Shown: positions 6,816-61,115 of the stretch, piece by piece
How the letters are laid out: each line of letters begins with the position of its first letter
Numbering within the stretch: the stretch's first letter is position 1
DNA from: Octopus vulgaris
Lineage: Eukaryota
Length of the DNA stretch: 64,000 nucleotides
NCBI GenBank assembly: GCA_951406725.2
Contig: OX597819.1
Location: 85,870,001 to 85,934,000 of the forward strand
Reading direction: 5' to 3'
The notes under the pieces: model-generated
What the model was told of the DNA's origin: nothing
What the model saw: only the letters and a program-made list of their open reading frames with translations
Database searches by the model: none
Translations under genes and position numbers: made by a program

Positions 6816-6826
<11 letters not shown>

Positions 6827-7193
6827 TAATAAGGGTTTTTTGCAACAAGTTGCTTCAACCACATACCGAAAATATTAGAAATAGCAGTCAAAGGGCTGCT
6901 ATTTCTATTACTACAAAAATACAGTAGACTGTGTGGTTTCGTTGTTTTCCTTCTTCTTTTGCCATATATGAGTTACAAATACTGTTGTTTGTGGAGACTT
7001 ATTTTTGTAGTAATAGAAATAGCAACCCTTTGACTGCTATTTCTAATATTTTCGGTATGTGGTTTAAGCAACTTGTTGCAAAAAACCCTTATTATAATTA
7101 TATAAATTTTTACCGAATATGGTCCTTTCCATACCGAAATACTACTAGGTGAAATTTATTGATTTTATTAAATTAATTATATTTCACCCTTTA

Positions 7194-7195
<2 letters not shown>
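6816..7195 (-). mobile_element. Fold-back Penelope-type relic (about 100-bp inverted arms) with the 3' half of a hammerhead
   Basis: Arms 6816-6920 and 6999-7104 are near-perfect reverse complements. On the minus strand the loop carries GAAAC-cacaca-GTC just before the arm. (TA)n on both sides. Confidence 0.6.
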
Positions 7196-7253
<58 letters not shown>

Positions 7254-8039
7254 AAATGCACACTGGATATAGAAGTAATGCCATTCTTTTATAAAAGCAA
7301 AGACATATACATACCGATAAATGATTTAAGGTGGAATTAAGAGTTATAAAAATCATAAGCATGAGTCAATATAGAAAGTCATACTATCTTCCTCATCGCT
7401 GTTCTCTGATTTTATACACATCTAAACACACCACACACACACACATACACACACACCTATATCTTTCTATCTATCTCCGTCTCAGGTACCACACAGAGGG
7501 ACTGAACATAGAACCATGTGTTTGGGAAGCACCCCTGCACTATACAGATATTTACGTACAGTTATATACAAATACATATAAGTATAAAAATACTCTTCCG
7601 TACATATATTTATATTCGTCAATATATATACATGCACGCATATATTTATACACAAGTATACAAACTTGTATATATATATATATATATAATATATATACAT
7701 AAGTATAGTAAACTTTGGTTGTAGAACAAACAACAAATATAAGGTCATCCACTTAACATATCACATCTCGAACATTTAATGAGATATTGCTTTTTTCTTA
7801 CACATAGAACATAGATGCATAAAATCACAGAAGATGAAACATAATTCATTTAGACAAGCATATAAGTGAAATGTGTGAGTGCAGTCTATCGCGATTAAAA
7901 ATTAATAGTTAATACTTTAGTGACTAAGAAAATTTTTTTTTAATATTATAACATCTACAATAATAAATATATGAATATATAAAAAATATATAAATACATA
8001 AATATATAAAATTATAAAAATACATATATTTCTCTCTCA

Positions 8040-8420
8040 CAGGAGTGGCTGTGTGGTAAGTAGCTTGCTAACCAACCACATGGTTCCGGGTTCAGTCTTC
8101 TACTATAGCCTCGGGCCGACCAAACCTTGTGAGTGGATTTGGTAGACGGAAACTGAAAGAAGCCCATCGTATATATATATATATATATGTGTGCGTGTGC
8201 GTGTATGTTCTGTGTGTCTGTGTTTGTCCCCTTAGCATTGCTTGACAACCGATGCTGGTGTGTTTATATCCCCGTCATCTAGCGGTTCGGCAAAAGAGAC
8301 CGATAGAATAAGTGCTGGGCTTACAAAGAATAAGTCCCGGGGTCGAGATGCTTGACTAAAGGCAGTGCTCCAGCATGGCCGCAGTCAACTGACTGAAACA
8401 AGTAAAAGAGTAAAAAAGAG
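8040..8420 (+). mobile_element. Family B SINE (internal deletion)
   Basis: AGGAGTGGCTGTGTGGTAAG head through GAAACAAGTAAAAGAG tail. Confidence 0.85.
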
Positions 8421-8564
8421 ATATAGGAAATATATAATATATAAGGTAAGATAAAAGTTCATCGATTAGAAATTTTTTCGATTAAAAATTACTTTTTAAG
8501 ATAAGGGAAAAAACCTATTATGAAAAGCCAGTGTCCAAGTAAAAAAGAAGAAACCATATTTACA

Positions 8565-8646
8565 TTCCCTATGGCCATTTTAGGGGTTCATCACCGTATT
8601 AAATGCACTAGGGTGCATTACAATAATTGCTCCTTCATCAGGGGAA
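8565..8646 (-). ncRNA. Type-I hammerhead motif with a G12>A core substitution
   Basis: The minus strand reads ttccc-CTGATGA-agg..(aatgcac ccta gtgcatt)..cct-AAAA-tggcca-TA-gggaa. Stem I is 5 bp and stem III is the palindrome ATGGCCAT. Confidence 0.65.
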
Positions 8647-9082
8647 AATTAAAAAACATCACATACCAGGGCGAGACCTCTTTAAACAAACCCGATGCAA
8701 CATTGCATGGTTTCTTATTTTTTTAATATTTTTATATATTTATTATTCTAGATATTATAATGTTAAGAATTTTTTTTTTTAGATGCTTAAGTATTAACTA
8801 TTAATTTTTAATCGCGATAGACTGTACTCACACATTTCTCTTATCTGCTTGTCTAAATGAATTATGTTTCATCCTCTGTGATTTTATGCATCTATGTTCT
8901 ATGTGTAAGAAAAAGCATCATGTGATTAAATGTTCGAGATGTGATATGTTAGGTGGATGACCTTATATTTGTTGTTTGTTCTACAAACAAAGGTTACTAT
9001 ATTTGCCTCATTTATTTGAGCACTTCTATAGCAGTCCTATTAAACATTTTGTTCCTGATAAGAAACAGTCACTTTATTATTG

Positions 9083-9144
<62 letters not shown>

Positions 9145-9396
9145 TTGTTCTGACCCATTTGAGGTAAGACATTATCATTGTTCACTGATATTTTTTCCTA
9201 TCTTGCCTGTAATAGATTTGTGACTTTTCGGTGGTACAGAAGTATTTTTTGACTTCTATCATTAGCGATATAGGTACTGATATAGTACCCTTGTGTATAT
9301 ATGTACATATCTAATATTGTATGTATATATGTTATTAATTTGCCTGTGCGGCTAATAATTCGCTTAGCACTTATGATGGTATTTTAATAATCCCAT

Positions 9397-9448
<52 letters not shown>

Positions 9449-9479
9449 ATGTGTGTGTGAGTGGGGGGTTGTTGTGGGG

Positions 9480-9770
9480 GGTTGTGTGCGTGGTTAAAAG
9501 CTTGTTGCCCAACGACATGGTTCCTGGTTCACTCCCAGATATAGATACATATATATCTTTGTGTGTATGTCTTCGTGTCTGTGTTTGTCCCCTCCACCAC
9601 TTGATAACGGGTTTTGCTGTGTTTACGATCCCGTAACTTAGCGGTTCGACCAGAGAAACCGATAGAATAAATTAGCTTAAAAAATTAGTACGGGGTCGAT
9701 TCATTCGACAAAAATTTCTTAAGCGTGATGCTCCAGCATGGCAGCAATCCAATGAGTGTAAAAAGTAATA
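9480..9770 (+). mobile_element. Degenerate family B SINE
   Basis: GTGGTTAAAAGCTTG..CATGGTTCCTGGTTCA head, plus CGTAACTTAGCGGTTCG and CTCCAGCATGG body motifs. Confidence 0.7.
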
Positions 9771-9772
9771 TG

Positions 9773-9811
<39 letters not shown>

Positions 9812-9854
9812 ATATGTATACATACATACATATATATATACACACATACACACA

Positions 9855-10010
9855 CTTTGCCATTGAGACCGGTGTACAGCTAGGGTGTATTCTATCCCCT
9901 TTCGTATTGCTTATGGCGATCGACCTCGTCATGCGTGGGGTGATGCACCATGGCGGGTTTGGGATTTTGTGGTATGAGTCAGGGCGCCTGACTGACCTTA
10001 ATTTCGTCAT
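9855..10010 (+). mobile_element. RTE-like LINE reverse-transcriptase fragment
   Basis: FAIETGVQLGCILSPFVLLMAIDLVMR...GILW...LTDLNF matches the GVRQGCILSP...LxDLDFADD RT motifs. Confidence 0.8.
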
Positions 10011-10014
10011 TGTA

Positions 10015-10273: not shown

Positions 10274-10305
10274 TCTCTCTCCACCACCCCTCTCTCTCCA
10301 CCCTC

Positions 10306-14305: not shown

Positions 14306-14819
14306 CAGACATATTATACTGGAGAAAGCTGTTTATTAATTAGGTATGTAACAGTTGCTTATAGAAAGCAAATATTAAAGGCTCGACTGTCCGGAATTTT
14401 TTTATAAATTCATGTTCCAAGAAATTTCCTGTAATTTCGGTTTCTGAAGTTTATGGAATATTTGAACTACAAGTTTTTCACAGATTTACATATTCATTGC
14501 ATTTCCTAGGTTGTAGATTTAACACCTTATCCTCGCCATCGCCCGTGGTAATGCTGCGAGCGTGCTGGCATTCTTCAGTACATTCTGTTATTCTTTGTGC
14601 TGTTATACTTTGTGATGAAAAAGAAAATCCCCACATATGGTTTCAATACAATTTTAACAGAAAGATTTGGGAGAATTAGATCAAAGTTCTCCTATAATTC
14701 TCCTTCATGTAAATAAATGTCTCTGTTAATTAAGTTTTTACAGAAAGACTTGGAAGAATTAGATGAAAGTTCTCAGGCAATTTTCTTTCATGTAATAAAG
14801 GTTTGGTGTGGGAGGGAGA

Positions 14820-16430
14820 TATTCTATCCTATCACTGAATTTGGAGGCAAGAAGAATTGCTAACAACCTTAAAGTTAGTAATAGGATAGAATACCTCCCC
14901 ACACGCCAACTCTTTATTACCCTAAAAGACCAGAAAGCTAATTTCAATAGAAACCCTAAATGTAGACTAATTAACCCAGCTAAAACTGAAATAGGCATTA
15001 CTAGCAAATATATTTTAGAAGCAAGTTAAATAGTGAATTAAATTTATGGATTTTGGGAAAATAGCAAGTCAGTGGTTGAAAGCGATTAGCCATAAGCATA
15101 ACTGCAAATCTTCGCAGTTTGATATTGTCGATTTTTACTCATCAATATCTAGGCCTTTGTTTCTAAAAGCATTAGACTTCGCCAAGCAGTATCTTACCAT
15201 CGATAGCTCGAAAATAGATATCCTGCATGTAAGGAAATCCCTTCTTTTTTACGATGATTCCATCTGAGTCAAAAGAGTAAGGATTCTCTTTTCGCTGTAT
15301 TGATGGGGACATATGATGCGGTGGAGTTGTGTATGCTTATAGGAATTTATATTTTGCATAATCTGCATCTAGAATTCCCTTTTATAGATGCAGGATTATA
15401 CAGGGATGGCGGTCTTATAGTCACCCATAATTTAAACGGCTATGAGTTAGATGAACTTAGGAAGAATCTGATTACATTTTTACAAAGAATGTGCTTACGG
15501 ATTACGATAGAAAGTAATCTTAATAACGTAGATTTTTTAGATATCAACTTAGATTTGGAATTAGATAAATTTAAACCCTACTGTAAGCCTAAGGAAAAGC
15601 CGTTATATTAACAAAGAATCTAATCATCCATCTGTAATTCTTAAGATTGAGACAGCATTTCAAAATGCTGCGCCGTATTGCAATAATGCGTTAAGGAAAA
15701 AGTGGATTTTCGGTTTATAGTCAAGTTAATTCTAACAATAATAGACCACATAGAACTAGGACTAGCAAAGTTTTGTGGTTTAACTCTGCATTTAATATTG
15801 CCGTAAAAAATAATATAGGTAGGGAATCCTTAAAATTAGTTTCTAAACATTTTCAATCTAGCCGTAAGTTCTATAGAATATTTAATGGAACACTGAAGGT
15901 TGGCTATTCTTGTTGCAAAACCTTCGCCTCTTTTATCAACCCGCATAACACGAAAATTATTACAAACAACTACAGTGGCGAAGCTAATCTGAGGAACTAC
16001 AACTTCAAAGATAAGACTTACTGTCCGTTGGAAGGAAATTGTCTAGTAAAAGGAATTGTTTATAGAGCCAAAATGTAAGTAGATTGCTCACAAAAATATT
16101 AAACATACACAGGGGTATCGAAAAATTCATTCAAGACCCGATTCTATATTCCCACCGAAATTCTTTCCGATACTCTGAGAAAAGGATAGCAACTAGTCTG
16201 CAAAGCATGTCTGTGAACTGAAAGAAAATGACACCCGTCCTTTCAATGTGAACTAGGAAATTCTAGAAAAAGTATCATCATACAGACAAGGAGCTTATAA
16301 AAGACCTATGAAATGTAATCTTTGCCTCTCAGAAAAAGCCTTCATCTTCTAGGATAAACATGTTTTGAACCAGAGATGCGAGCTCTTAAATTTCTGCAGG
16401 CACGCCACGAGGTTTAAAATGTCGACCGAT
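14820..16430 (+). mobile_element. Decayed Penelope-like element (RT + C-terminal GIY-YIG)
   Basis: FITLKDQK..CRLINPAKTEIG; FDIVDFYSSI; MGTYD..GLYRDGGL (YxDD region); DFLDINLDL; CPLEGNCLVKGIVYRAK..YTG; CNLCLSEK..CRH. Many stops and frameshifts. Confidence 0.9.
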
Positions 16431-16858: not shown

Positions 16859-17049
16859 TTATATAAATAGATGAGTGTATTTTTACTTTGTTAACAATTA
16901 ACATGGAAAAAATAAATAAATAGTTATCAGGGTAGCAAAAATCTCACAAGTAAAGATGTTGTAACTCCTTGTTTATAAAGGTAGAAACTTCGTGTTTACG
17001 TGGAATATTTTGAATAATATATGACTAAATAAATGGAGTTAACGCAGGT

Positions 17050-17870
17050 GTAAATCAAATATTTTAACTTTCGACACATGTTTCGAAAATTCCAATGATA
17101 CTATTCAAAAGAATAAATGGTATAAACAATGCAATCTTCTCTTCAGGAAAGTGAAAAAAACGAAACTCGTCAATAAGTCATTTTAGCAAAAAATGATGGA
17201 TTTGTATAGTGATTGACTGAACGCTTAACATTGTTTAAAAAAACGTTATATGATATAACGTCATAAGTAGCTTACAGAAAGAGTAGGGATACCAATAGTG
17301 AATGTTAAATATAAAGGAAATTAAAGTTTAAATTATATATAATGATAGAGACTACTTATCGGCACTAAATGTGTGTTTTTGCCAATGTTTACATCTAAAT
17401 GTTCGCTCTATAATCGTGTTTACTAGGGGATTTTTAGAAAGAAATAATGAAAAATAGCTCAGAATTGCAGAGAAGACAGAATTCCTTGCCTTTGTCATAA
17501 GGTATCGAAATTGAGAGAATCAACCATTCTAAATGAAATTGTTCATTGTGGTCTTTTAAATTCCAAATCAGTTTGCTGAGACCGGTACCATTACGTTTAT
17601 TTCTATTGGATAGAAATTCTTTTAGATAACTCTAACGATGTGCTTCCAATGTAAAATCGTACTTTATTACGCGTACTGATTATACACTGGTATATAGATT
17701 TTTTAATCTTAGAGTTACTTGATATAAACTTAATTCTATTGGAATTGACTTCAGATACAATAACCTTGTTATTAATATTTCTAGAGGGTTGGATGGTATT
17801 AGATAAATTAATGTTAGTATTAGTAAATGTATTAATATTTAACAGTTTGTTTTTATGTGAAGAGATATAG
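17050..17870 (-). mobile_element. Penelope-like element 3' fragment (GIY-YIG + 3' tail with hammerhead)
   Basis: The minus strand reads SIYQCIISTRNKVRFYIGSTS ... WLILSISIPYDKGKEFCLLCNSE...RCKH, followed by a hammerhead. Confidence 0.85.
17067..17152 (-). ncRNA. Type-I hammerhead ribozyme, intact catalytic core
   Basis: actttc-CTGAAGA-gaagatt...aattttc-GAAA-catgtg-TC-gaaagt. Stem I is a perfect 6 bp, stem II is extended and closed by G-C, and the cleavage triplet is GUC. Confidence 0.85.
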
Positions 17871-19308: not shown

Positions 19309-19700
19309 AGATCGCCATGATAGATTGTTAGTCACTACACACATTTTTCTGTCCTTGTTTCTCCCCTTGTTTTTTTTCTGTGTCCCTTTCTGTAGAAGAG
19401 CGTAGGCTCGAAACCTAAAAGACTTTTTCTATTCCTGAGCGTTATACTAATACATCTGTTTGTTTTGTACACCACCTGTCTTCGTCTTTTGTTTTTTTCG
19501 TAAACTCTCCCTATATATATATATATGGGGGGGGGGGAGAATTCACGAAAAGAACAAAAGATGAAGACAGGGGGTGTAGAAAACAGACAGATGTATTAGT
19601 ATAACGCTCGGGAATTGAAAAGAGTCTTTAATGTTTCCAGCCTACGCTCTTCCTCAGAAAGAAACAAGGAGAGAAAAATGTAAATGTGAGTTGTTCAATT
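19305..19700. mobile_element. Inverted pair of a ~200-bp short element carrying a minimal hammerhead
   Basis: 19320-19512(+) and 19536-19695(-) are diverged reverse complements. Motifs: cttt-CTGTAGA-a-gagc gtag gctc-GAAA (19386-19421) and cttt-CTGAGGA-a-gagc gtag gctg-GAAA (minus). A third copy is at 35075. Confidence 0.7.
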
Positions 19701-34975: not shown

Positions 34976-35074
34976 GGAATTTAGAAGACGCAAAGTGTGT
35001 GCAATTTCTTGGTATGTTTGTATGTATGCATACATACACACACACACATATATATTTCTGTGCGTGTGTATACA

Positions 35075-35260
35075 TGATAGATCGCTAGCCACTAAACCTT
35101 TTTCTATTTTCTCTCCCTGTTTATTTCTGTGTTTCTTTCTGTTGAAGAGCGTAGGCTCGAAACGTAAAAGACTTTCTCACTTCCCAAGCGTTAAACTGAT
35201 ACATCTGTTTATTGTTTACACACCCATCTTCATTTTTTTTTTGTAAATTCTCACTATATC
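35075..35260 (+). mobile_element. Third copy of the short hammerhead-bearing element
   Basis: tcttt-CTGTTGA-a-gagc gtag gctc-GAAA-cg-TA-aaaga at 35134-35171. Colinear with 19320-19512. Confidence 0.7.
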
Positions 35261-35479
35261 TATGTATAGATATGTATGTATATGTTGGCGTTTGTGCATA
35301 CGTTCCTACTGCATTGCAACCGGTATTGGTTTGTTTTCGTGCTCCTATCTTAAGGGTTTGTCGAAAAAAGATAATAGAACAAGTAGCAGGCTTAAAATGA
35401 GTACTAGGAATACATTGTTCCAGCATAGCACCAGAAATATTTATGGTATTAACCATAAAATGATGTGGGGTGATTATAA

Positions 35480-35704
35480 ACAAGAAAAAAGCAACAAGAA
35501 TGGATTAGTTGTTCAGTACAACTGTTTCATACGAAGAACAGATTTATTTAAAGCTGCAAATATTGCAGCAAAACACATATGAGTTTTGGCTGATGAATAC
35601 GGGACACTTATATTTGCTGCAATATTTGCAGCTTTAAATGAATCTGCTCTTCGTATGAAACAATTGTACTGAACAACTAATCCATTCTTGTTGCTTTTTT
35701 CTTG

Positions 35705-35705
<1 letters not shown>
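35480..35705. repeat. ~93-bp fold-back with CTGATGA in the loop
   Basis: Arms 35480-35572 and 35613-35705. The loop has CTGATGA at 35590-35596. Abuts (TA)n. Confidence 0.85.
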
Positions 35706-38829: not shown

Positions 38830-40020
38830 GCTTATAAATCTAATATTTTTCTATACTACCTTAATACCGGTTCCCATATGCTACTCACGTCTGCACTCGG
38901 TCTGCTTAGGAGGTTGTTGTGTCCTAGAATATGTACTGCTTCTTTTAATTTTCGTATTTTCCAGTGGTGTTCTTTGTCTATTATTTTAACTTCATCCTAC
39001 AGGGGGAGGTGATCTCCATTTTCCCTATACATGATCAACTATACCCGATGTATCAATATCTCCTCGTGTCACAACTTTGCGATGTTCGTCTACCCTTATA
39101 TTGAAGGGGCGGCATGTTTCACCTTTGTATAAATTACCATACCTGCATGGGATGGAGTACACGCAGTTTTGGGTCATATTATCTTCTATTGGTGGTTTTA
39201 CTCGAAGGGGATATTTATTAAGTGCTGTATTACTCTTGAATACTGTCCTGATTTCATATGGGCTGCATATCTTTTCTGTATTTTCTGAGAGGCCTTTCAC
39301 ATGGGATAAAGAGACTGTAGACAGTTTATTGGTTTCATCCGCTCTTTTCTTCATAATTGGAATAGATAGTATGTTTTGGGATAATTGTTGCTTAATAGAT
39401 TGTTACTGAGTTTGGTCATTTCCTCGTGGTGTGTATCACGATCGCTACTTATATACTTTACTCGATGTTTTAGGCACTGGGCAATTCCTCTCTTTACACT
39501 GTATGGATGGTTGGAGTTGAAGTTAAGTTATCGTCCAGTGAAGGTCGGCTTGCGGTATAGGGATATCCTGAATCCATACTTGGTGCGTGTTATTAATACA
39601 TCCAGGAATGCTAGCTGATTGTCTTTTTTCCTTTTCCATTGTGAAGTCTATGGATGGCTTTATTGAGTTCTCATGCACTTGGACATCTTCCTGGTGGGAT
39701 CAGTGAATAAAGGTGTCATCAACATATCGCAGCTATAGGGTTGGTTTTAGTGGTGTTGATCCTAAAGCCAAATTCTCCTCAATATATTCCATGTATATAT
39801 TGGCTATTATCGGTGATAATGGCGAACCCATAGCTAAACTCTCTTCTTGTTATATATCAGTGTCCGTACTGAAATAGGTAGGTTCTACACAGAAGGTCAA
39901 CATTTCTATCAAGTTTCTTATTGGTATACTAGTGCGTTCTTTTAGATGGGTGTCTGTCACTAGTTTTTCTTGAATCACCGATAGAGCTTCCCCAGTTGGG
40001 ACTTTGGTGAACAGACTTGG
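38830..40020 (-). mobile_element. Decayed Penelope-like element (RT + GIY-YIG)
   Basis: LFTKVP; LAMGSPLSPIIANIYME; LRYVDDTF; AFLDVL; YRKPT; CVYSIPCRYGNLYKGET..RVDEH; RKLKEAVHI. Confidence 0.92.
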
Positions 40021-40023
40021 ATT

Positions 40024-40173
40024 CAAGTATGGATTCAGGACATCCGTATACCGCAAGCCAACCTTCCCTGGACGATACCTTAACTTCAATTTCCACCCTC
40101 CATAGAGTGTAAAGAGAAGAAATGCTCAGTACCTAAAACATTTAGTAAAGAATATAAGTAGCGATCGTGATAC
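40024..40173 (+). mobile_element. Inverted diverged copy of Penelope segment 39433-39582
   Basis: CAAGTATGGATTCAGGA...GCGATCGTGATAC is a reverse-complement match. Confidence 0.85.
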
Positions 40174-40535: not shown

Positions 40536-40612
40536 ATATACAAATATATACACATAATACACACACACACACACACACATATATACATATAATACGTATA
40601 CATATATATATA

Positions 40613-41801
40613 CTAGCATTAAAAACCCGTCATTGCCGGGTCATAGTGCTAGTGCATGTATATATGTGTTTATATATGTGTACATATTACATGTACATCT
40701 ATATATATACATCTACACATAAAATACAAAATACAAAGTTATATCTTGATATCGCTAGTGATAACAATACTCAAAATATATAACAAACTGGAATTGTTAG
40801 CCCGTCTCTTGTAATTTCGATCAATTGTATCTTGTCCTCCCTCTTGTATAGAAGTGTGGCTACAATCCAGCCTACCTCTACTTCGGGGGTGGTGGGTTTA
40901 AATATTCTTCCGGGACGTTCTACGTCCCAGATATAAAGGTAAACGTAAAATATTTCCACTTTGCAAGTTCGAGTCGAGTACTCCCTTGCACGCTCCGTTG
41001 ACTCGAACACTTGCTTCTATTGTGGCGAATTTACCGCCTCTGGTTAGATATCTTTCATAGTCGCACCAAGACACTTTTCGGAGGTGCTTTCCTCCAGGTG
41101 TTCAAATCTTTTTTCTCTACATTGTATACTTTATAGACAATAGTCTTTTCTTTAATTTAATTTTTTATTATCCATCTGGACTATTCCATTTCTGCACGCT
41201 AATTTTATTTTTAATTTATTCCCATTCATGTGAAACCACTTATTCAAGTTCAAGTCATTGATGCAATTTTATACCAATTGCTATTTTTACTTTTGTTATG
41301 TTACGATTATATTATACTTTAGTTTGATTTTAATTATTACTTACTACATATAATTCAATTGTTATTATTATCTCTAATTTTTATTGTTAAAGTGAAAGTA
41401 TCTGACATAAAATAGAGAAACGCTTTTGTTTCACTTTTAACACGTAATACTGAAATAGTGGAGAAGATATGATATTGCTATGCGCTCGCTCTAGACAAGA
41501 AGTTGAACATTTCGTTTGCCCATGAAACTACATGGACCCTAAGTAAGGCATGTGTAAAATTTGAATGGAATTGGTTGTGTAGTTCTCAAGTTTTAGGGAA
41601 TTGTAGTGGAGAAGATATGATATTGCTGTGGGCTCGCCCTAGGCAAAAAGTTCAAATTTTTTTACCGATGACACTCCCTGGACCCTAAGTAGTGCATGTG
41701 TAAAATTTGAATGAAATTGGTTTTGTAGTTCTCAATTTTTAGGGAAACACACAGACAGACAGACAGACAGACACACATTCTCAGTTTTATATATATAAAG
41801 A
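40613..41801 (-). mobile_element. Non-autonomous Helitron, copy 2
   Basis: Same termini (TC.. / hairpin + CTAG) and body as 716-1854. Confidence 0.8.
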
Positions 41802-42112: not shown

Positions 42113-42992
42113 CGAGGTCTGACCAATAAATATCCGCACCGTTGCCATTATAACGGAGCTATAGCGTGCAGAGTGAAGCCACTTCGCAAAGATTGACCTT
42201 GAACTGTGCTCTGCATTTTCACTAAGTTTTAACGTTCTAGCACACTGCGCTATATACAACAGTGCTTAGAAATAAGGTGTGTACGTGTGATCATCGCACT
42301 GACTATGACAGAGGAAGTTCTCATGGCTCAGAGACCTACGCAGAGTTGCAGAAAGTTCATGGAGAGGAGAGTATAAGCTCACACAAATGTACGAGTCGTT
42401 CAAGTATTTCCAAGATAACCGAAAAAAATGTCGATACTGACGAACGTTCAGGGAGACTCGCAGCCAGCGGAACTGAGAAAAACATCGTAGATGTGAGCGC
42501 AGCTGTGAAAGTAAATAGTCGAATTGCCATCCGTAAGTAACCAGAGAATGTGGAGATTACTTATGGTTCAATTCAGTACATTATCACTGAAGATTTGGGT
42601 ATCAGACGCGTGTCTGCCAAGTTTGTTTCAAAACCCCTTTCAGCTGGCCAAAAAGACACTCGGGTTTCAGTTTCAGAAGATCTTGATCGTGATGAGAACG
42701 ATGAAAACTTTTAAAGACTTTGCGTAGGCCTCTGAGCAGGTATCGGCAGGCTTTTGGTAAAATTTGATGCAGATTCTCTGCTCAACATTCTCTATCATAG
42801 TCAATGCGACGATTACACCCTACACACCTTCATTGTAAGCCCTGCTATAAACAGCAGAAGTGAACGAGAACAGTAAAACTTAGTGTGCATGCTCAACAGA
42901 GTTTAAGGACAAACTGTTGCAAGCGGCTTCACTCTGCGTGCTTCAGCTTTGTTACTATGGCAACAGTCCGTATACTTCATGATCAGTCTACC
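42113..42992 (+). mobile_element. Internally deleted mariner element
   Basis: TA-flanked imperfect TIRs (CGAGGTCTGACCAATAAATATCCGCACCGTTGCCAT / ATGGCAACAGTCCGTATACTTCATGATCAGTCTACC). HTH remnant ETYAELQKVHGEE..DERSGR. A lone TIR of the same family lies at ~44989-45026. Confidence 0.85.
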
Positions 42993-44846: not shown

Positions 44847-47141
44847 TATTTGTATATGTATGCATACATATATACATAAGTGTGTGATTGTATATGTATA
44901 TGCATATATACATGGCGATTTATTAATATTTTAAATTTGACTTCTCGAGCTTCGACTGCTGTCATCAAAGCCAATAAAACCAGCAGTTCTATGGCAACAG
45001 TCTGGATACTTCATGATCAGACTTCGGAATATCTTTATATAAAATACTGTTGTTAGTAATATGAAATCCAAAACGTAGGTCATGCTCAAGAATATTCGAA
45101 ATAATGGTGGTCCTTATTTCGTCGTAACGTTTCGGCAGGTGACGAATGCATATATATCACGAACAATAGGTAATATGATGGGATATACTCGAATATACAA
45201 GTCATGGTGTTATCTAAATACTGTGACGTTTTCAAAGTTGCATTCCACCAAATGTATGGAAAGAAAAGAGAGAAGAAAGGAAGTATTTGATCATCAACAG
45301 TGGAGGTGTTACGCAGAATTCCAGTTGATTTGCGTAAGGAAGTAAAAGCCACTTGAGGGCTCTTCAAAAGCATGCTAGAGTACTTGAGAGAGGCAAATAG
45401 TAGTAGTTGATGCAGTAACAGCTAATGTATTGTACTGTACCACCTGTTGCAGCGCCGAGGTTATCTGGGAAAAAGAGGCCTAGTTCTGAGACCCTGAAGA
45501 AAATAACTGGAGAGCTGAGGAGAGACGGGGCGACTGAAATAAGTCAATGAAAATAACAAGAGAAAGAAGAAGAGATATAATGCAGAGGGTCGAGGGTAGA
45601 CTGTACCTGTAATTCAAAAGGCATAGCATGGACACACATACAAACACAATACACACACATACACGCACAATTCCATGTGGATCTAGCCACGTTAATTCAT
45701 GTGTTGGCTGTTTTGTGTAGTTTTGTGTAGGCTATTTTGGTAATTAATCTTTAGTCTGAATCATCACACCAAAAGATGGAGACCCACCGCCACAGCCATA
45801 ATATTCCTTTACTTATTCTCATGATTACCGATTGGTGGAAAAGGCAAACGTAGTTGGTGTGACACAAATATAGCTAAAATAATCTTCATTCTGTTCAGCA
45901 CATGAACCAGTATCGATTCCAGGAGAGAGAAAATTCTTTGCATTTGCAACATTATAGCTTCTGAGTTAGACATAGATATCACATAACTATTATTCATCTC
46001 CTGTAATTCTGTAACATAAAAATAAAAAAATAAAATAAATTAATCTACACTTCTGGGGAAAACTGTCAGTTAGATACTCATGATATATTTGTTTTAATTT
46101 ACATTGGTAAAGCTCCAGAGAAAAGGCAAAATCAAAACATTGTATTGCTATATGGTACAACATTTGGTTATTTTAAATGTTGAAAAGAACATCTCTATCA
46201 TTTAAGAGATAGAAGAGACAAAAAGGATTTTATACTGGGATGGTTTAATCAACTAACAACTCACCAATAAGCTACAGCGGACTTAGAGAGCGTTCATTTA
46301 AGAGTCACAAGCACTCAAACAACAGTTCGTTCTCTTGAAAGTATTATGCATGTATGTTACTGATGTTTTTGTTCTCAGTGTGGGCTGCAAGCAGAGAAAA
46401 TCGATTAGGAACGGACGATATACTGTCGCTGGTTTGTGTCCATTTCTATGATCAAATCCCACAGGTTTCGGTGTTATTCAAGGAGAATACTAAAGTTGAT
46501 TCAAATATTTATAACGCATAAATGACTAAAAATAGAGGCAGAATGCTTTGAAAATAATATATAGTTGCATTATTTTGAAATTGTAAATTAAAGAATATTT
46601 AGCAATGCAAATAATACATAATCTATGCATAAAAAGTGAAAATAAAACACAAGTTCATATCTTCAAAAGAATCTATAGAAAATCACATTTCTTTCTGATG
46701 GTTCACTTCTGAAAGTAAGACTATTTCAGTAGACTACTTGTTGAATGATGGATCATATTGAGATGAATTATTTTCATCACTCAATGTATTTCTGTAGAAA
46801 TTAGCTGTGTTTTGAGTGTTACTCTAAAAATAAAGTGAGAAGGCGCGTAATGAAAGAAAGAAAACAACAAATTTTATCAAAATAAACAGTTAACTGGAAC
46901 ATCATACAAATAAACGCTTTCAAAATAATTTCCCAGGGTGATACCTGAGATTTATTTTTTGCTTCGAAAGATCATTAAATAAATATTAAGTTAAAATTAG
47001 AAACATTGATTTCATAAACATTTGTGTGACACACTTGTGTATGAAGTAATTTCGTATAAATAAACAAACATATTTGTTTATTTGATATTTGTAAATTAAT
47101 ACACATACGCAAACCCATATGTATTTCAATATTGATCATAG

Positions 47142-47740
47142 GGCGGCGAGCTGGCAGAAGCGTTGGCACGCTGGGCGAAATGCGTAGCCGTATTTCATCT
47201 GCCGTTACGTTCTGAGTTCAAATTCTGCCGAGGTCGACTATGCCTTTCATCCTTTCGGGGTAGATAAATTAAGTACCAGATACGCACTGGGGTCGATGTA
47301 ATCGAATTAATCCGTTTGTCTGTCCTTTTTTGTCCCCTCTGTGTGTTGCCCCTTGTGGGTAGTAAAAAATCGGTATTTCTTCTGCCGTTACGTTCTGAGT
47401 TCAAATTCCGCCGAGGTCGACTTTGCCTTTCATCCTTTTGGGGTAGATAAATTAAGTACCAGTTACGCACTGGGGTCGATGTATTCAACTTAATCCGTTT
47501 GTCTGTCCTTGTTTGTCCCCTCTGTATATAGCCCCTTGTGGGTAGTAAAGAAATAGGTATTTCTTCTGCCGCTACGTTTTGAGTTCAAATTCCGCCGAGG
47601 TCGACTTTGCCTGTCATCCTTTCGAGGTCGATTAAATAAGTACCAGATACGCACTGGGGTCGATATAATCGACTTAATCCGTTTGTCTGTTCTTGTTTGT
47701 CCCCTCTATGATTAGCCCTCTGTGGGCAATAAAGAAATAA
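47142..47740 (+). mobile_element. Family A SINE tandem trimer (one head plus three ~185-bp bodies)
   Basis: Units restart at GTATTTC(T)TCTGCCG near 47372 and 47557. Confidence 0.9.
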
Positions 47741-48113
47741 ATATCATTCATATGGTACAAATGCCTGAAATGCTCAATTCACCCATTGCGGAAAGTACTT
47801 GGAGTTTTGTATATGTTAATATAGATAAGATAAACAAGCAGTACCATACTTGAACCACAGTTTCATTCGTTCATCCGTATGCCTGAACGCATTTGAAAGT
47901 AATTTTATGACTCTAGTTGAATTAAGGGAGTAAATTGTCCGTTTTTGTCTTCTATCCATAAGGAAATTGCTCTCCTATAAATTCTCAAAGAAGAGTTTGG
48001 GGATGTGTCAGAAAATAATATTACCCTGTTCTATTTGTTTAAGATTATAAGAAGACAACTAGGTGTGACAGAGGTTCTCTCTGAAGCAGAGATTGCAGAA
48101 ATTGGACGATATA

Positions 48114-48203
48114 AAAACGCTGCTGATGAGATGCCAGTGCATTTTCTTTGGTTTCTTTACTCACAAGTGTACTTCGAAAAATATGTTAATTTCCTAGTGT
48201 TTT
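48114..48203 (+). ncRNA. Type-I hammerhead candidate
   Basis: aaaacgctg-CTGATGA-ga..gtgcattt/aagtgtac..tc-GAAA-aat..att-TC-ctagtgtttt. Core intact, stems imperfect. Confidence 0.6.
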
Positions 48204-50696
48204 CAAGAGAACGAATTGTTCGAGAGAAAGTGACTCTTAAATGAGCGCCCTCTAAGCCCGCTGTAGTTCATTGATGAGTTGTTAGTTGATCAAAATATCC
48301 CAGTATAAAATGCTTTTTGTCTCTTCTATGTATTAGCTCTTTAAATGATAGAGATGTTCTTTTCAGCATTTAAGATAACAAAATTTTGTGCAATATAACA
48401 CTTGCCTATTGTTTTAAAGCGATTGCTCGAGTGTGTTGTTAAGAACTGCCTTCTTCCTTCATATAGGCTAATTCATATTAATAGATAGCGGAAACTTTGA
48501 AGTAGTGTAGTGCCCAGGAAGCCTTACAAAACCTGGCGTATATGTACACACATTCCTGCATCTACTGAACTCTTTCAAATATGTTTTAATCAGCAGAAGC
48601 CAGTGAATGCATAACTTATACATCTGAAAACACCGTAGAGTTCTATAACGAGGACTATCCACTAATCAGTAACAATAAAAATAAGGATTCGATAATAGCA
48701 GCACTAGAAAACAGTCTTATAAACGTGTAATCCACCATAAAACATTGGTATAGAAACTGTGTGGCAACTTGGACAAGTGTCTCTTCCAGCAGCCTCGATG
48801 TTTGTGACACATTTCAGTTTCTAAAGGCAAATGCAATGCAGTTACCGCGGAGAAAAAAGATTTCCGTATGGTAAAATGTATAAAACACAATATGTGCCCA
48901 GTGTTTCCCTCTGTCGGTTTTCCAGATGCAGTGTTTCTGTCTCGTAAGCCTTTGTCAATGGGAAATACCGAAGTGGGCTAACTCTGCGCAGATTTAAAGC
49001 CGAAATTTTAACTAAAAAAGAAAAAAGTCAACAACATTGATTGATTAGATAATACAATCATATTATCTAATCGGTACGGAGCCGACATTAGACTTCAAAA
49101 GAGACGTATAGAGAAACTCCATCGAAAACTAGCTCGTCTTTCAAACCATCTAACTTTCCAAAAATGAAAAAAAAAAGTTGTTCTACCTCACGTTTACTAG
49201 AGTTCAGGGTCGCAAAATGAGCGTTGTCCATTCTGAAACAAACTATCGGAAATACTAGAGAATTGGTCCCGAGACAATAGAGCAGGTAACAGCCAACGAG
49301 GTTTGTGACTTCGGCCGAGTTGCTCGCTTCTATCGGTATATCGAAGTCATTAGTTTTCTGTCAAATTGTACAATTCGACGGGCTGCTAGGATAATATCGA
49401 TATAAACTCTAGATAGGTCAGAATATTTTAGTGCAAATATGAGGTCTTCGTTAAGTAGGATAAGAGATACGAAGGCCACCGATGTAACTCCGACTGCTAT
49501 AGCTAAAACCTTAATCACCTCACTTTCTTCCTCTTCTCTCTTATAGCAGTCCCACCTTACTCACACTCCTATATAGTTAACTTCTTCTTTTGCTTTTCTT
49601 CTCATTCTTGACTATTTCATTTCTAAAACTTCTTTTCTTTCTTTTTATTCAGTATCAATGTCTATGCATGGTTGAGATAACATATTTGTTTACCGTTGAT
49701 ATAGTAAAGTGACCTCAGCTTAATATTGACATCGACCATGCCCTAAAGTCAGCATCAATCCAATCTAAACCCCACTTTTCTTTATTCTTAACAAATTTAG
49801 AAAATTTCCCACTCCCCAATTTTTTTACTTCTTCCCTCTTTTCTCTTACCGACCAAGTTATTTTTTCAGAAATTTGGTTTACTATTTTGTTATTTTACAC
49901 AATTCTTCCGATTTCACTGCTCATTTAAAATTATATCTTTGGCGAGTTTCTTAACTAAGGCAACTTCGGTCTGGTGAGAAGCTATCGGAATATCCCTCGT
50001 TGAGCAATTATTACTTCCGAGGATTTGCTACTAAGGGAACATATATAGCCTGAATTTTACCAGCTCCATTCTCTCAATTTGGATTTTTAGTCGCCTTCAT
50101 AGCAACCCTAGTTGGTAACTGTGAACTATAAAACAACTTTTCAGCTTATCGAAATTAGATATAGGAAAAACCTACAACCTTCGATATGGATAAACTATTC
50201 TTGTTTTTTACAATTTCGACGGATCACTCGAAGCTTTTTAACTTCCTAAACCTAGATCCCCGGATCTTACAATCACACACCCACACCCACACCCACCCAA
50301 CACCCATACACTCATACGCACATACACACATACACACACACAAGCCCGCCCCCATATATATACGAGGGGAAGTTAAAAATTATCCGTACTTTCGCCATAA
50401 CATCTTTATTATTGTCTGATTATTTGTGTGTATGGATGAGTGTGTGTGTGTGTGTGTGCATGTGTGTTAGGGGTGTACCTTTTTGTCTGTTTCTCTTTTC
50501 CGTCGCTCGATAACAAGAGTTGGTTTGTTTACGTCTCCGTAACGTTGCTATTCGGCATAAAAGGACCAAACGGATAATCATTTCAGCAACCGTCATATGA
50601 TGATAAATATACATACATAGGTAAATTCATATATATGTATATCGGTGTGCGTGTGTGTTTAAGTGTGTGTATGTGTGAGTGTGTGTGTGTGTGTAT

Positions 50697-52392: not shown

Positions 52393-52714
52393 TGTGATGG
52401 GTATATTAGATATTGCTGCATGAGTACGACTGCCGTAAACTGCAAGCAGTATGTCTCCCCCAGTATGTGATTATTGCTGTTAGTATCTGCAAAAGACTGA
52501 CAGATTTAAAACTCTATGTGCAATAATAAAATAAAATATGTGTTTATTTGAACCACAGATTCACTCGTTCATCCGTATGCCTAAACGCATTTCAAAGTAA
52601 TTTGATGACTAGTTGAATTAAGGGAGTAAATTGTCCGTTTTTGTCTTCCATGAAATTGCCCCCCTATTAATTCTCAAGGAAAATTTTGGGGATGTATTAG
52701 CAAATAATATTACA
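52393..52714 (+). mobile_element. Possible solo LTR; partial second copy at 47850-48025
   Basis: TGTGAT...ATTACA termini and an internal AATAAA. The 3' ~170 bp is repeated at 47850. No TSD seen. Confidence 0.45.
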
Positions 52715-53094
52715 CTGCAACATATATGTATTAATTTTTCGCAGGTGTTGTCTGTTATTTCTTCACGTGGCCTGCGAAATACATTTTCATTCAGAACACG
52801 TCACCTACGACGAACTTTTTTTTGGGGGGTTATCTTGAGCAATTTACTACGGAAGTGAAAATAGATTTTGACAGGCATCAGTACTGGAGAAGGGGCTCAC
52901 ATATGACTGCGCATATATACACATACATATATCTTAACATACACATTCATACACCCGCTCAACCACTCATACATGCATGCATAAGTATATATCTAAAGAT
53001 TTAAACAACGTTACTTAATGCAGCCTCTTACAAGAATATCTTACAAGAATATCTTTTAAAGTAAAATTTAGTAATTACAAGTTTTTTAATAGTA

Positions 53095-53649: not shown

Positions 53650-54120
53650 TAGGAAAAAAATTATAAAAGAATTTCTACCAGTGGCCTAGCATGTATACAA
53701 AGTCAATAGACATACTTTTCATATAAAAATTAGTGTACATTTATACACAAAGATGCAAGCCTTTAACAGGTTGCCTAAAATACTAGAAGGAACAGTCAAA
53801 GAGTCCAGGTCACAGTTAAGAGCAATTTCTATTACTTCTTCCTACCCTATATAAATTTAAGAAATGATTTTAGCAATTTCTGAAGTTTAATCGGAACTTT
53901 TATTTGCTGCAGATTAAAGCTGCTGATAAGCTCTTCGCCTTGCAATTATTTTAATTACTAACCAAAGTTCGAAATTTCGGGTCCGGCGGTAAAACAGTAA
54001 ATGTTTTTATTTTTCATTCCTTTCAAAATTGCTCTTAACTGTGGTTTGAACTTCTTGACTGTTATTTCTAGTATGTTAGGCAACCTGTTTAAGGCGTGCC
54101 TCTTTCTGTATAAATGTACA

Positions 54121-54125
<5 letters not shown>
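53650..54125 (+). mobile_element. Fold-back relic with a hammerhead-like motif in the loop
   Basis: Arms 53729-53828 and 54026-54125. Motif gctg-CTGATAA-..-GAAA-tttcggg-TC-cggc at 53919-53987. (TA)n/(GA)n flanks. Confidence 0.7.
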
Positions 54126-57700: not shown

Positions 57701-58404
57701 CTGCATAAGATGAAACAAAGATGTTTAACAGTATATGTACATTTTCTTTTTAACATATAATGTAGTTCTTGGCCCACACTCAAACATATTTGAAATGAAT
57801 GTTTGAGGGCATTACAGTTTTCACCGCATAATTACAATTATAAATAAAGATATCTTTTCACACGTTTCTATTAAGACTAACGTCAGTATTCTTGGTGTTG
57901 TCATTATTTACACTAATAATGTTGCGAATGTTCCATATAATCATCCTAATATTGTTGCTATTTATCAATTACTCTTTTACTCTTTTACTTGATGAGGATT
58001 TGTATGTTCATTCCTCTAATATGAAGGATCATGGCTACAACTACTAAATTATCCCAACGTCATCACTTCTGCACATAAATAACCAAATAATTTTTTTCTA
58101 AAATAAATAGGCAAAATACTTAAGAAACAATGTGTCCACTTGATGTAACAATAACGTTCTAAACACAAAATATCTAATTAAACTTTGAGTAATTAATACA
58201 AACAATATCACGTGCTGATTCAATGCAAATATTTCTATGGAATGATATGCAATCAAAGAAACAGCATTTATATTAAAGCTTTGTACTTTAACGAATATGT
58301 AGTAGGCAAGATAGACCTTTAAATCGAATTAATTTTTTTAAAGCCACTAAAAGACTTGGCTCCGTTTAGTAGACTTTGCAATTGTCCAAATATCCCCCAT
58401 TTAC

Positions 58405-58525
58405 CGCAACGTTTAGGAGATCTACCTCGAAAGTGCTTCTCAATAATGTTTTCCGAGGAAAACATGTAAAACAGCAAAGACGATATGACAACGGCTATAG
58501 CGACGACGAAACTGATGACACCAGT
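58405..58525 (-). CDS. Candidate exon with a transmembrane-like stretch
   Basis: aatag|ACT..TGCG|gtaaat bounds TGVISFVVAIAVVISSLLFYMFSSENIIEKHFRGRSPKRC. Its phase is compatible with 57593-57700. Confidence 0.25.
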
Positions 58526-59048
58526 CTATTCTATAGTAAATAAAGCTGGTTGGGAATTAACTAATATAAATGTAACTTTTACTATTAGTGAGTGATCATT
58601 AGGGTCAATACTGTCAAGAAAATTCTTAGAAATACTAGTTTTGATATATTTTAGCAATAAAAATGTTTTACAAGTTTCTTTTATTATTCAAGATTTCACT
58701 ATACGCTTCACTCAGAAAACTAATTTTTATTCGCTGCAATATAGCATTTTTTCAAACCTCTTACATATTTTCTCCTTTTTTCTAATCTTCTCATGCCTAG
58801 CGCTCTTTCTCTCTCACTTTGTTTATAGCGTCTGTTCGTTTCTAGCACTTTCAGTCTTTCAAATTATTTATCATTATCACTTTTGCTATCATACTCTTAT
58901 CATTATCATCTTTTCAACGTCCTTCTTCCCTCGGTCTCTGACACTTCTTTCACAAACTCTGTTTGTATCTCTTCCCCTGATATTTCAATTTGATATTTTC
59001 TTCTTTTCCTCGTACACTCTGTTACATTCACTTTTATTCCTTACACTA

Positions 59049-59111
<63 letters not shown>

Positions 59112-59339
59112 AAGCTTCTATTTAATTGCTTTTTTTTTATTAAGAATACGTACTTGAGGTTGTTGAGATATTTTGAAAATATTTGTGAACGTTTCTGCTC
59201 TACATTTCCCATAACAAAATTACTTCGCTGAATATCGAAGGCTTTGAGTTATATTCTGGGCCTACATCGACTTTGCATTTAGTATTAGGTAATATTATTG
59301 ATTTCATTTAACATATTGATTACAATACAATAATAGAAT

Positions 59340-59990
59340 CAACATACTGCGATATGTTATTCCAGACTGAAATTTCCACTTCAACATACGCCGTCCTAAA
59401 GAAAATGCGGCTAAAAACATGGTTGGCGGCAAAGGCACAGCGGCAGATGGAGAGAAACTGAACCAGTGAAACGAGGGAAAATCAAGTAAATGAACTGTCT
59501 AAATATACATGCAGGCTTTGAGAATATGATATTGTAAGGGGATGTCAAGATGAGAATGATCGAGGTGCCAGTTTTCCCAGTCTGTGAAAATTCTGGTGTA
59601 TATTGATAACATTCATCATATAGACAGGATATGCAGACAAGTCATTCATTCAAATATTAGTGATATGCAAACAGTAATAAGAGAAACATTGCATAAACTG
59701 TATGCATCTGAGGTACTTTCATGTTTCTCATACAGATTCGGGAAAGATATTCGTTCACATAAAAGTAGTTGATATAAAAATAGGCTAGCATTGGCTTCCC
59801 TGGATTGCAGAAAAATCAGAGCCCCAGGATTTAGTTTTATATTTAAGGTGCAAGAAAATGAATGTTACATGATCGAATCACTACTTCAAAATACAACAAT
59901 CTGAAATTTGCTCAGATCTATATATACGTAGTTCTAGAGCAGCTGCTATAATTGGACATAAAGGATTTCCCTATTATTGTGCATGTTAAT
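59340..59990 (+). mobile_element. Very degenerate RLE-LINE fragment
   Basis: HHIDRICRQVIH resembles the RHDxxxxxIH motif after the CCHC finger. A later PIIV-like motif is present. Confidence 0.35.
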
Positions 59991-60344
59991 TAGAATAGTA
60001 AACTCTCTAATAAACATTTTCGAACATACCATCTACCAATGGTATCAATAATTAATTTGTTAAACGTTTCCTCAAATAACGTGGGTCTTTGTCGAATGAT
60101 ATATGCAAAATTAAGATAATATATATAATTTATATATTTTCTCTCACCTTTTACTTATTTCATTTAATAGAATGCGACGATTCTGGACACCATCTTGAAT
60201 AGTTTATTCACGCAACCGTCATGTAATTATCTTTTCAAAGCATGGTACTTATTGAAGAGTTCTCCTTTTGCCGAACCACTAATTTGCAGGGAAGTATACA
60301 AGCCAAGACACCTATATCTCTACCCCTCCATCTGTATATATATA

Positions 60345-61115
60345 CAAATAAGGGTAAAAATTGTTAAAAGAGATAAAAATGTTTACCAGTGGTCAGCATG
60401 CGTAATAAAAGTGAGAAGACATACATATTTCTATATAATAGTGTTTAAAAAGTTATACACGCAGAGGAGACCACCATATGGACTCCTAACATGCTAAAAA
60501 AGGCAGTCGAAACCCAAACCAGGTTAAGAAAGGTTCTTCTTTCAGACACATTGCTTGTAAGTGAGCAGGATATCTAAATGAATAAAAGTTTCGGTTAACC
60601 CCATACCCGTGCGTTTCACTATTAATGATCAAATATATCAATTAATTCGTCAATTTATTGACTAATTAGTCAATCAATTAATTAGTTAATTAATTGAGTA
60701 GTTATTAATTAATTAGTTGAATTTATTAACTGCTGTACGATGCTGGCTCAACACAGTGCTTCAGGATATTTGATTTGAATTCATGATGTTTAAAGATGAA
60801 ACTAAATGCGTATGTCATTATCTTGTGTTTTTCGTTACGTATTATACTTTCATAATTAAGTGTTTGCGAACAACGCTGCTGATGAAATAGGGATGGTTAA
60901 TTAATTAATTAAGTTGATTTATTTGATCATTACGAAACTCATAGGCATAGAGTTAAATGAGACTTTTATTCATCTAGATATTCTACTCGCTTACAAACGA
61001 CGTACCTTAAAGGATCTTTCTTTCTGTAGTTTGGGTTTCCATTGCCCTTTTTAGCATTTGAGGAGTCCATATGGTGGTCTCCTCTCCGTGTATAAATTTT
61101 TATACACTATATATA
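60345..61115 (+). mobile_element. Fold-back relic with a degenerate hammerhead before the right arm
   Basis: Arms 60432-60592 and 60959-61113 (LYT(Q/E)RRPPYGLL on both strands). CTGATGA..atggttaa/ttgatcat..GAAACTC..GAGT at 60879-60954. Confidence 0.7.

What the first reader, a model, noticed from the sequence alone, without database searches (positions are those of the whole stretch)
6816..61115. Recurring non-coding [inverted tail]-[hammerhead]-[tail] fold-back cassettes, often in (TA)n
Seen: at 6816-7195(-), 35480-35705, 46150-48400, 53650-54125 and 60345-61115 a whole or partial hammerhead core is followed by a 90-190 nt tail, and a reverse-complement copy of that tail lies upstream. Most are flanked by (TA)n. 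The arms are not obviously similar between loci, so the architecture is shared rather than the sequence. Three start with a similar leader (A/G)GG(G)T/AAAA...TTT(C)ACC(T)AGT(A/G)G. Known: Penelope-like elements carry hammerheads in their pseudo-LTRs and often have inverted 5' pieces. Inference: these are a retrozyme-like or short non-autonomous Penelope class that favours TA microsatellites, with self-cleavage defining the duplicated tail.
Basis: partly seen in the sequence, partly recalled or inferred. Interest (0 to 1): 0.8.

Follow-up and report, generated by a model that had tools for sequence, protein, structure and literature searches.

The report
Penelope-made mirror insertions of ribozyme repeats
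These short mirror-image DNA pieces are real, and they are most likely separate insertions made by a Penelope-type jumping-gene enzyme copying short, protein-less RNAs into TA repeats, a layout already described in other animals, with the fold-back point falling at a different place each time rather than at the ribozyme's cutting site.

Summary
All five fold-backs exist (arms 77-97% alike), plus a sixth at 7701-9082. Only B has a canonical hammerhead. C, D, E and the sixth have decayed cores, and A has none. The 'leader' is the reverse complement of a 3' extension carried by one arm only, the known Penelope 'tail'. A, D and E are related through arm and extension. Arm inner ends lie -55 to +178 nt from the cleavage site. 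Contigs of other copies of A and D show different junctions, each at about one-locus depth. So the cassette does not replicate as a unit, and self-cleavage does not set the duplicated tail. No Penelope ORF was found inside any cassette. In D's family the extension runs head-to-tail into the DNA upstream of the hammerhead, implying an ORF-less unit of about 358 nt. Verdict: retrozyme-like, non-autonomous Penelope passengers with the standard inverted insertion footprint, probably mobilised by a (TA)n-targeting Penelope such as the Hydra clade, whose remnants lie in the window. The scan has noted this pattern before, elsewhere in this genome and in others. RNA, cleavage and circles are untested.

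The parts
6823..6925 (-). Cassette A: inverted arm without the extension, ending in (TA)n
   Evidence: 97% to 6997-7098; 1 nt from a TA run
6926..7098 (+). Cassette A: 5'-truncated sense copy (loop plus arm); no hammerhead core
   Evidence: Diverged contigs bridge 6997 on one strand; depth falls from the arm toward 6926 in 3 runs; no core
7099..7196 (+).
   Evidence: Highest depth of the stretch in 2 of 4 runs, below the arm core in the other two; fold -13.0 kcal/mol
35436..35562 (-). Cassette B: inverted copy (3' half of the hammerhead plus tail, 35562-35481) with an extension of about 45 nt holding an 8-bp hairpin; an old SINE piece lies to its left
   Evidence: SINE match p 0.0005; outer end approximate
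35563..35704 (+). Cassette B: sense copy with a canonical type I hammerhead (core 35590-35596, GAAA 35657-35660, cleavage after 35668, 60-nt stem II region, palindromic stem III loop), 36-nt tail, then (TA)n
   Evidence: Strict scan hit; landmarks
46146..46340 (-). Cassette C: inverted arm; may extend weakly to about 46402
   Evidence: 84%; extension p 0.01
46341..48118 (.). Cassette C interior: unassigned DNA, a SINE in partial tandem (about 47120-47740) and a 180-nt piece repeated at 52545-52717; no PLE coding match
48119..48400 (+). Cassette C: decayed hammerhead (48119-48187) and arm (48201-48400); no (TA)n
53650..53828 (-). Cassette D: inverted copy, arm 53828-53731 plus 81-nt extension 53730-53650, ending at (GA)n(TA)n
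   Evidence: 87%; junction bridged by contigs with 0 differences in 2 runs
53825..54123 (+). Cassette D: sense copy. It begins with sequence matching the end of the family's extension, then a spacer, a decayed hammerhead (53919-53987, cleavage after 53983), a conserved box (53997-54030) and the arm, then (TA)n. Implied unit about 358 nt
   Evidence: Opposite-strand joints 53671/53825, 53672/53839, 53672/53856 and loose ends; length
60346..60662 (-). Cassette E: inverted copy (part of stem II, 3' half of the hammerhead, arm) plus 87-nt extension homologous to D's
60875..61110 (+). Cassette E: hammerhead with intact 5' core (60879-60885) and decayed cleavage triplet (60945-60947), arm, short (TA)n; upstream 60663-60874 unassigned
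7701..9082 (-).
16862..17637 (-). Internal comparison: Hydra-type endonuclease remnant (17637-17430), canonical hammerhead of the same long-stem-II style (17146-17073), 210-nt tail, (TA)n; no inverted arm
   Evidence: Profile E 2e-12; tblastn E 4e-9; strict scan

Best explanation
Each cassette is a separate two-armed insertion, likely written by a Penelope-type reverse transcriptase/endonuclease from the 3' end of a short hammerhead-lineage RNA, and in family D that RNA is likely an ORF-less head-to-tail unit of about 358 nt (retrozyme-like). Inferred steps: the enzyme nicks both strands of AT-rich or (TA)n DNA and primes cDNA from both ends. One cDNA starts at a distal site (end of the extension, at a terminal hairpin), the other at a proximal TA-rich site about 45-100 nt further upstream. 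Each stops after a variable length, and the two are joined head to head, often at a short palindrome or microhomology. This gives an inverted arm with extension, a loop belonging to whichever cDNA ran further, and an arm without extension. Shown here: the anatomy, the scattered junctions, the head-to-tail continuity in D's family, and the absence of detectable ORF. Inferred: the enzyme, the two priming sites, the RNA template. Ribozyme cleavage plays no visible part in setting the arms, and most of these copies are decayed fossils.
For: - One-sided extension in 5 of 6 cassettes (A, B, D, E, F), matching the published inverted 5' copy plus one-sided tail.
- The proximal end falls just before a TA-rich word at nearly the same aligned place in A, D and E.
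- In vitro, a Penelope protein nicks and extends both strands, starts at two internal sites that bound the tail, and does not need ribozyme cleavage (PMC11167929).
- For D, 9 of the 15 joints shown are other fold-backs, with junctions differing from D's. In three runs their depths are 35-70, against 42-58 for contigs of this locus itself. For A, 7 joints are shown, at depths of 5-74.
- Three further D joints (3 of 4 runs) link the extension end to the start of the sense copy, and loose-end consensus letters there resemble 53825-53850 by eye.
- Hydra-type remnants with the clade's motifs lie at 14832-16425 and 17637-17430. The second is followed by a hammerhead of the same style and (TA)n. A Hydra family with (TA)n preference is listed for an octopus (PMC8557442 File S1).
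Against: - No nucleotide similarity links any cassette to the Hydra-linked 3' end at 16862-17430, so the partner enzyme is not identified.
- The direct alignment of D's own extension end with its sense start is not significant (p 0.11; p 0.69). The head-to-tail claim rests on contigs of other copies.
- D's hammerhead region is covered at about one-locus depth or not at all (0, 0, 42, 73), so spacer-to-ribozyme continuity in other copies is weakly shown.
- No such permutation was found in A, B, C, E or F.
- C has no (TA)n and no recognised extension. A has no ribozyme.
- One other D-family locus starts its sense copy about 10 nt past the cleavage site (table 5c), and C's high-identity core ends 14 nt past it.
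- Only 2 of 6 families were tested against other copies, with contigs, and the tables were cut (10 joints not shown for D).
Confidence: 0.68

Rival explanations
1. All cassettes are just 5'-truncated 3' ends of autonomous Penelope-like elements with the usual inverted copy. D's head-to-tail joint is an ordinary partial tandem or a local rearrangement, and there is no ORF-less family.
For: The same window holds ORF-bearing PLE remnants with inverted pieces (14792-14920; 40024-40173) and a truncated EN-hammerhead-tail end. A's depth falls steadily upstream. Most minimal hammerheads in animal genomes were read as truncated PLEs (PMC4209133).
Against: In D's family the extension end is followed by the spacer that leads within about 90 nt to the ribozyme, in contigs of 3 of 4 runs, and 4 of 9 other fold-backs also start their sense copy at 53826-53856. 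No coding match in any loop, including C's 1.1 kb of non-SINE interior, though only Hydra- and Poseidon-type queries were on hand.
Confidence: 0.17
2. The second arm is made by snap-back: the end of one cDNA (or a broken strand) folds onto a short internal complement and copies itself back to a TA-rich site, so only one priming event uses the RNA.
For: Fits A best. The loop belongs to the extension-bearing copy, a short natural complement flanks the loop, and letters at 7014-7033 that differ from most other copies are mirrored in the left arm. Palindromes at inverted junctions were read as self-priming in PMC3846280; F has one.
Against: In B, D and F, and probably E, the loop belongs to the copy that lacks the extension, so the extension on the other arm cannot have been copied from it.
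Confidence: 0.08
3. One reading: a class of fold-back cassettes that replicate as units, with hammerhead self-cleavage defining the duplicated tail.
For: The layout recurs six times. C's high-identity arm core ends 14 nt past the cleavage site, and one D-family locus starts near it.
Against: Offsets of -55, +43, -33 to -51 and +178 in B, D, E, F. Junctions differ among copies of A and D. A lacks a core. Arms in B and E include the cleavage site itself.
Confidence: 0.05
4. MITE-like or Foldback DNA transposons with long terminal inverted repeats that insert at TA.
For: Long inverted arms and TA flanks.
Against: The arms are not terminal on one side (45-100 nt extension), inner ends vary among copies, depth falls from one end, and hammerhead cores lie in sense with the arm in B-F.
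Confidence: 0.02

Closest known systems
Insertion units of endonuclease-bearing Penelope-like elements (PMC8557442: passages, section 11, supplement rows; PMC3846280: passages; PMC11167929: parts 1-3 of 4)
   Same: Inverted 5'-truncated copy next to a sense copy, tail at one end only, hammerhead near the 3' end, microsatellite targets, palindromes or microhomology at the junction.
   Different: No RT or GIY-YIG ORF found inside; extensions of 78-98 nt in A, D, E, F against the published 30-40 nt (B, about 45 nt, is close); A has no hammerhead.
Hydra clade of PLEs (PMC8557442 section 11; File S1 lists Hydra-1_Obim)
   Same: (TA)n targeting and canonical hammerheads; a Hydra-type end in this window has the same long stem II and palindromic stem III as B.
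   Different: No sequence similarity shown between the cassettes and that end; Naiad families of octopuses also prefer (TA)n, so the partner is open.
Animal non-LTR retrozymes (PMC7229834: passages; bioRxiv 10.64898/2026.07.22.740005: parts 1 and 3 of 5)
   Same: Non-coding, low GC, type I hammerhead, unit of about 358 nt in D's family (mussel 350-390 nt), proposed to be moved by PLE enzymes.
   Different: No complete tandem in this window; copies are dispersed two-armed inversions; ribozymes mostly decayed; no RNA or circle shown. In PMC7229834 the word 'inverted' does not occur.
Minimal hammerheads of metazoan PLEs (PMC4209133: parts 1-2 of 4)
   Same: Short helix I, short palindromic helix III, mostly solo motifs, pairs on opposite strands 100-700 bp apart already reported.
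   Different: Stem II regions here are 41-60 nt, longer than the 7-8 bp helix described.

Membership tests
Autonomous EN+ Penelope-like element | ORF with telomerase-like RT and GIY-YIG endonuclease | tested here: not met
   No significant hit inside A-F with 41 PLE-like proteins and a 16-sequence profile (weakest-level scores only, E 0.08 or worse), Pfam or phmmer of a copy of C's interior piece. Neptune, Nematis and Naiad queries were not on hand.
PLE insertion footprint | Inverted 5'-truncated copy adjoining the sense copy | tested here: met
   6 of 6 cassettes
PLE insertion footprint | Tail extension at one end only | tested here: met
   A, B, D, E, F; not recognised in C
PLE insertion footprint | Variable 5' truncation and variable junctions among copies | tested here: met
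   A and D, the 2 of 6 families tested
PLE insertion footprint | Type I hammerhead near the 3' end | tested here: inconclusive
   Canonical in B, decayed in C, D, E, F, absent in A
PLE insertion footprint | Target-site duplication | not tested
   Ends lie in microsatellite, where duplications cannot be read; not sought systematically for C
Hydra clade passenger | (TA)n target | tested here: met
   5 of 6 alignment-defined arm ends within 5 nt of (TA)>=4, background 4%
Hydra clade passenger | Shared 3' sequence with an autonomous Hydra element | tested here: inconclusive
   No similarity to the one Hydra-linked 3' end in the window; no genome to search
Non-LTR retrozyme | Head-to-tail units of a few hundred bases, each with a type I hammerhead | tested here: inconclusive
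   Head-to-tail joints for D's family in 3 of 4 runs; no full dimer seen; no permutation found in A, B, C, E, F
Non-LTR retrozyme | No protein-coding capacity | tested here: met
Non-LTR retrozyme | Self-cleavage and circular RNA | not testable with these tools
   Needs bench assays or raw RNA reads

The most novel reading that the evidence does not exclude
The two arms record two Penelope reverse transcriptases working on one small RNA circle from both cut target strands, each tending to stop near where the other started. In D's family all 9 other inverted arms shown end at 53697-53751, within about 35 nt of the proximal start (53731). 4 of 9 sense copies, and D itself, begin at 53825-53856, around the distal start (about 53844). 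The signals the enzyme reads would be the terminal hairpin and arm box kept across A, D and E, not the ribozyme, which A's family lacks. Thousands of such copies would then be a natural read-out of how Penelope inversions form.
Probability: 0.3. Interest if true: 0.62.

Novelty: new member of a known kind. Interest (0 to 1): 0.33.

Why it matters
As it stands it is an annotation point: such fold-backs are Penelope footprints on short ribozyme-lineage repeats, not a new class of element. Searches for cephalopod plus retrozyme and octopus plus Penelope plus hammerhead found no paper describing these families. A 2026 octopus repeat annotation has no occurrence of 'hammerhead' or 'ribozyme' in its main text. 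The library lacks most subscription papers, and Repbase and Dfam were not searched. If the novel case holds, the copies would make an open question directly testable, namely how PLE tandem and inverted structures form (named as open in PMC8557442), and would point to the RNA signals that let a non-coding RNA borrow the enzyme.

Tried and rejected
- Rfam: no match at gathering score. The E-value run showed only microsatellite- and hairpin-driven matches in the 150 of 175 rows printed.
- No RNA holder was listed for 59000-62700; this is no evidence on expression.
- A metagenome scan with D's box found nothing.
- A suspected endonuclease remnant in C's interior got no support: the 4 phmmer hits were repetitive proteins with summed weak stretches.
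- A long 63% alignment extending C's arms by 450 nt was rejected (p 0.24). A 60-nt extension remains possible (p 0.01).
- A by-eye likeness of A(+) to B(+) was not significant (p 0.07).
- B's long apparent leader proved to be an old SINE piece.
- Three of D's 15 listed joints (53751/54089, 53752/54089, 53800/54048) join near-mirror positions and were set aside as ordinary copies switching between arms.
- Look-ups of earlier findings by sequence for D, A and B returned nothing.
- One paper fetched by a mistaken id was unrelated.
Full report
Setting. The window is 34% GC and rich in microsatellites and SINEs. No genome is held for it. I take the host to be an octopus from earlier scan notes on the same genome and from recall of its repeats; no tool named it.

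Are the fold-backs real? Yes. Self-BLAST of the masked window finds all five, plus a sixth, F, at 7701-9082. Arm identities are A 97%, B 91%, D 87%, E 77%, F 89% and C 84%, so the events differ in age. D's junction is bridged by contigs with no differences in two DNA runs, so it is not an assembly artefact. The arm end that lacks the extension lies within 5 nt of a (TA)>=4 run in 5 of 6 cassettes, against 4% of window positions; C is the exception.

Are the hammerheads real? In part. A scan that allows a long stem II and a minimal stem III finds two canonical motifs, B at 35590(+) and one at 17146(-), against 0.07 per shuffle. C, D, E and F carry recognisable but damaged cores. A carries only a 3' half-motif on the minus strand, a pattern that occurs 51 times in the window. 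The variant table for other copies shows nothing that would restore a 5' core. Rfam found none at gathering score.

What is the leader? In A, B, D, E and F one arm runs on for about 45-98 nt beyond the point where the other arm ends in (TA)n. Read in sense, this is a 3' extension. D and E share it (z 8). Over arm plus extension, D aligns with E (z 8.9) and with A (z 6.6), while B, C, F and the 17-kb end align with none of the others. In A it folds into a terminal hairpin; E has a weaker one. This is the one-sided tail described for Penelope-like elements, there 30-40 bp long, together with the inverted 5'-truncated copy (PMC8557442, passages; PMC3846280, passages).

Does cleavage set the arms? 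No. Relative to the cleavage site the inner arm ends are -55 in B, +14 in C (or about -47 if a weak extension is real, p 0.01), +43 in D, -33 to -51 in E and +178 in F after removing a SINE. In B and E the arm contains the cleavage site.

Do copies share the fold-back? I laid contigs of four DNA runs on A and on D at 80% likeness. For A, summed depth is highest on the extension and arm core and falls toward 6926 by about 25- to 100-fold in three runs. Four listed contigs with 10-13 differences bridge 6997 on one strand with at least 31 letters each side, and none listed bridges 6925 that well. A's sense is therefore +, the loop belongs to the extension-bearing copy, and the left arm is the inverted one. 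Seven joints at other places are listed, at depths of 5-74. Letters at 7014-7033 that differ from most other copies are mirrored in the left arm, so the inversion was made at or near this insertion. For D, 15 joints are shown and 10 are not. Nine are other fold-backs, with left ends at 53697-53751 and right starts at 53839-54065, at depths of 35-70 in three runs, like the 42-58 of this locus's own contigs. Three join near-mirror places and were set aside. Depth sums over contigs are not copy numbers, but they point to abundant families.

Is there a short ORF-less unit? For D's family, probably. The remaining three joints (53671/53825, 53672/53839, 53672/53856; 3 of 4 runs) carry the end of the extension straight into the DNA at which D's sense copy begins, and loose-end letters at the extension end resemble 53825-53850 by eye. 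From there the ribozyme is about 90 nt away, giving a unit of 358 nt. Against this: D's own two versions of that stretch do not align significantly (p 0.11); other copies barely cover the ribozyme itself; and no permutation was seen in the other five cassettes. No PLE coding match was found in any cassette with Hydra- and Poseidon-type queries, Pfam, or phmmer of a copy of C's interior piece. The same queries find decayed PLEs at 14832-16425, 17637-17430 and 38.9-40.0 kb. I noted the unit length before seeing earlier notes that report young 355-360-nt ribozyme repeats in this genome. Those notes are unchecked, and I could not link them to D by sequence.

Mechanism. A purified Penelope protein nicks and extends both strands of AT-rich DNA, starts reverse transcription at two internal sites that bound the tail, and works equally with a dead ribozyme (PMC11167929, parts 1-3 read). 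Applied here, one cDNA starts at the extension end and one at the arm end, each is cut short, and they join head to head. That accounts for the one-sided extension, the conserved outer ends, the scattered inner ends and the loop belonging to either arm. This step is inference. Snap-back copying explains A as well, but not B, D or F. The likely enzyme is a (TA)n-targeting clade. The profile built from relatives of the 15-kb remnant shows the Hydra motifs, the 17-kb Hydra-type end carries a ribozyme of B's style, and an octopus Hydra family with (TA)n preference is on record. Octopus Naiads share the preference, and no sequence link to a partner was found.

Most novel reading. In D's family the nine other inverted arms end near the proximal start, and four of nine sense copies plus D begin near the distal start, as if two enzymes on one small circle each stopped where the other began. 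Short truncation lengths and divergence in the arm could give the same picture, and the sample is small and cut. I give it 0.3.

Verdict. The cassettes work like Penelope insertions, are not autonomous elements, and at least one family works like a non-LTR retrozyme, though membership is not fully tested. New member of a known kind; interest 0.33.

Noticed in passing
window 7701-9082: Sixth cassette of the same layout with a SINE inside it and a short palindrome at the junction near 8700.
   Followed up: partly
window 35073-35255, 19316-19510, 19674-19537(-): A short element of about 185 nt with a hammerhead-like core variant (position 6 changed, minimal stem III). Two copies share both ends; the pair at 19316-19674 lies tail to tail around (TA)n, the opposite of the cassettes. 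Candidate short non-autonomous family.
   Followed up: partly
window 6649-6680: Another hammerhead-like core followed within about 90 nt by TA/CA repeats; single copy in the window.
   Followed up: no
window 14792-16425: Decayed Hydra-type PLE (RT, linker, endonuclease) with a small inverted duplication at its 5' end (14792-14920).
   Followed up: partly
window 38860-40173: Decayed Poseidon-type PLE on the minus strand; its 5' end is joined to an inverted duplicate (40024-40173) of an internal coding stretch (39433-39582), not of the terminus.
   Followed up: partly
window 63826-64000: 97% palindrome cut by the window end, next to (TA)n; may be a young cassette of the same kind.
   Followed up: no
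window 42119-42986: Inverted arms 75% alike around 460 nt; looks like a decayed Tc1/mariner-type element (label from recall).
   Followed up: no
window 60642-60735: The stem II region of E's inverted copy appears expanded into an AT-rich self-complementary run (alignment p 0.02).
   Followed up: partly
window 21705-20864(-) and 49470-49139(-): Weak further PLE reverse-transcriptase remnants (profile E 3e-5 to 7e-3).
   Followed up: no
window 714-1778 and 40611-41750: A 1.1-kb repeat, 89% alike, with a 140-nt internal tandem; not classified.
   Followed up: no
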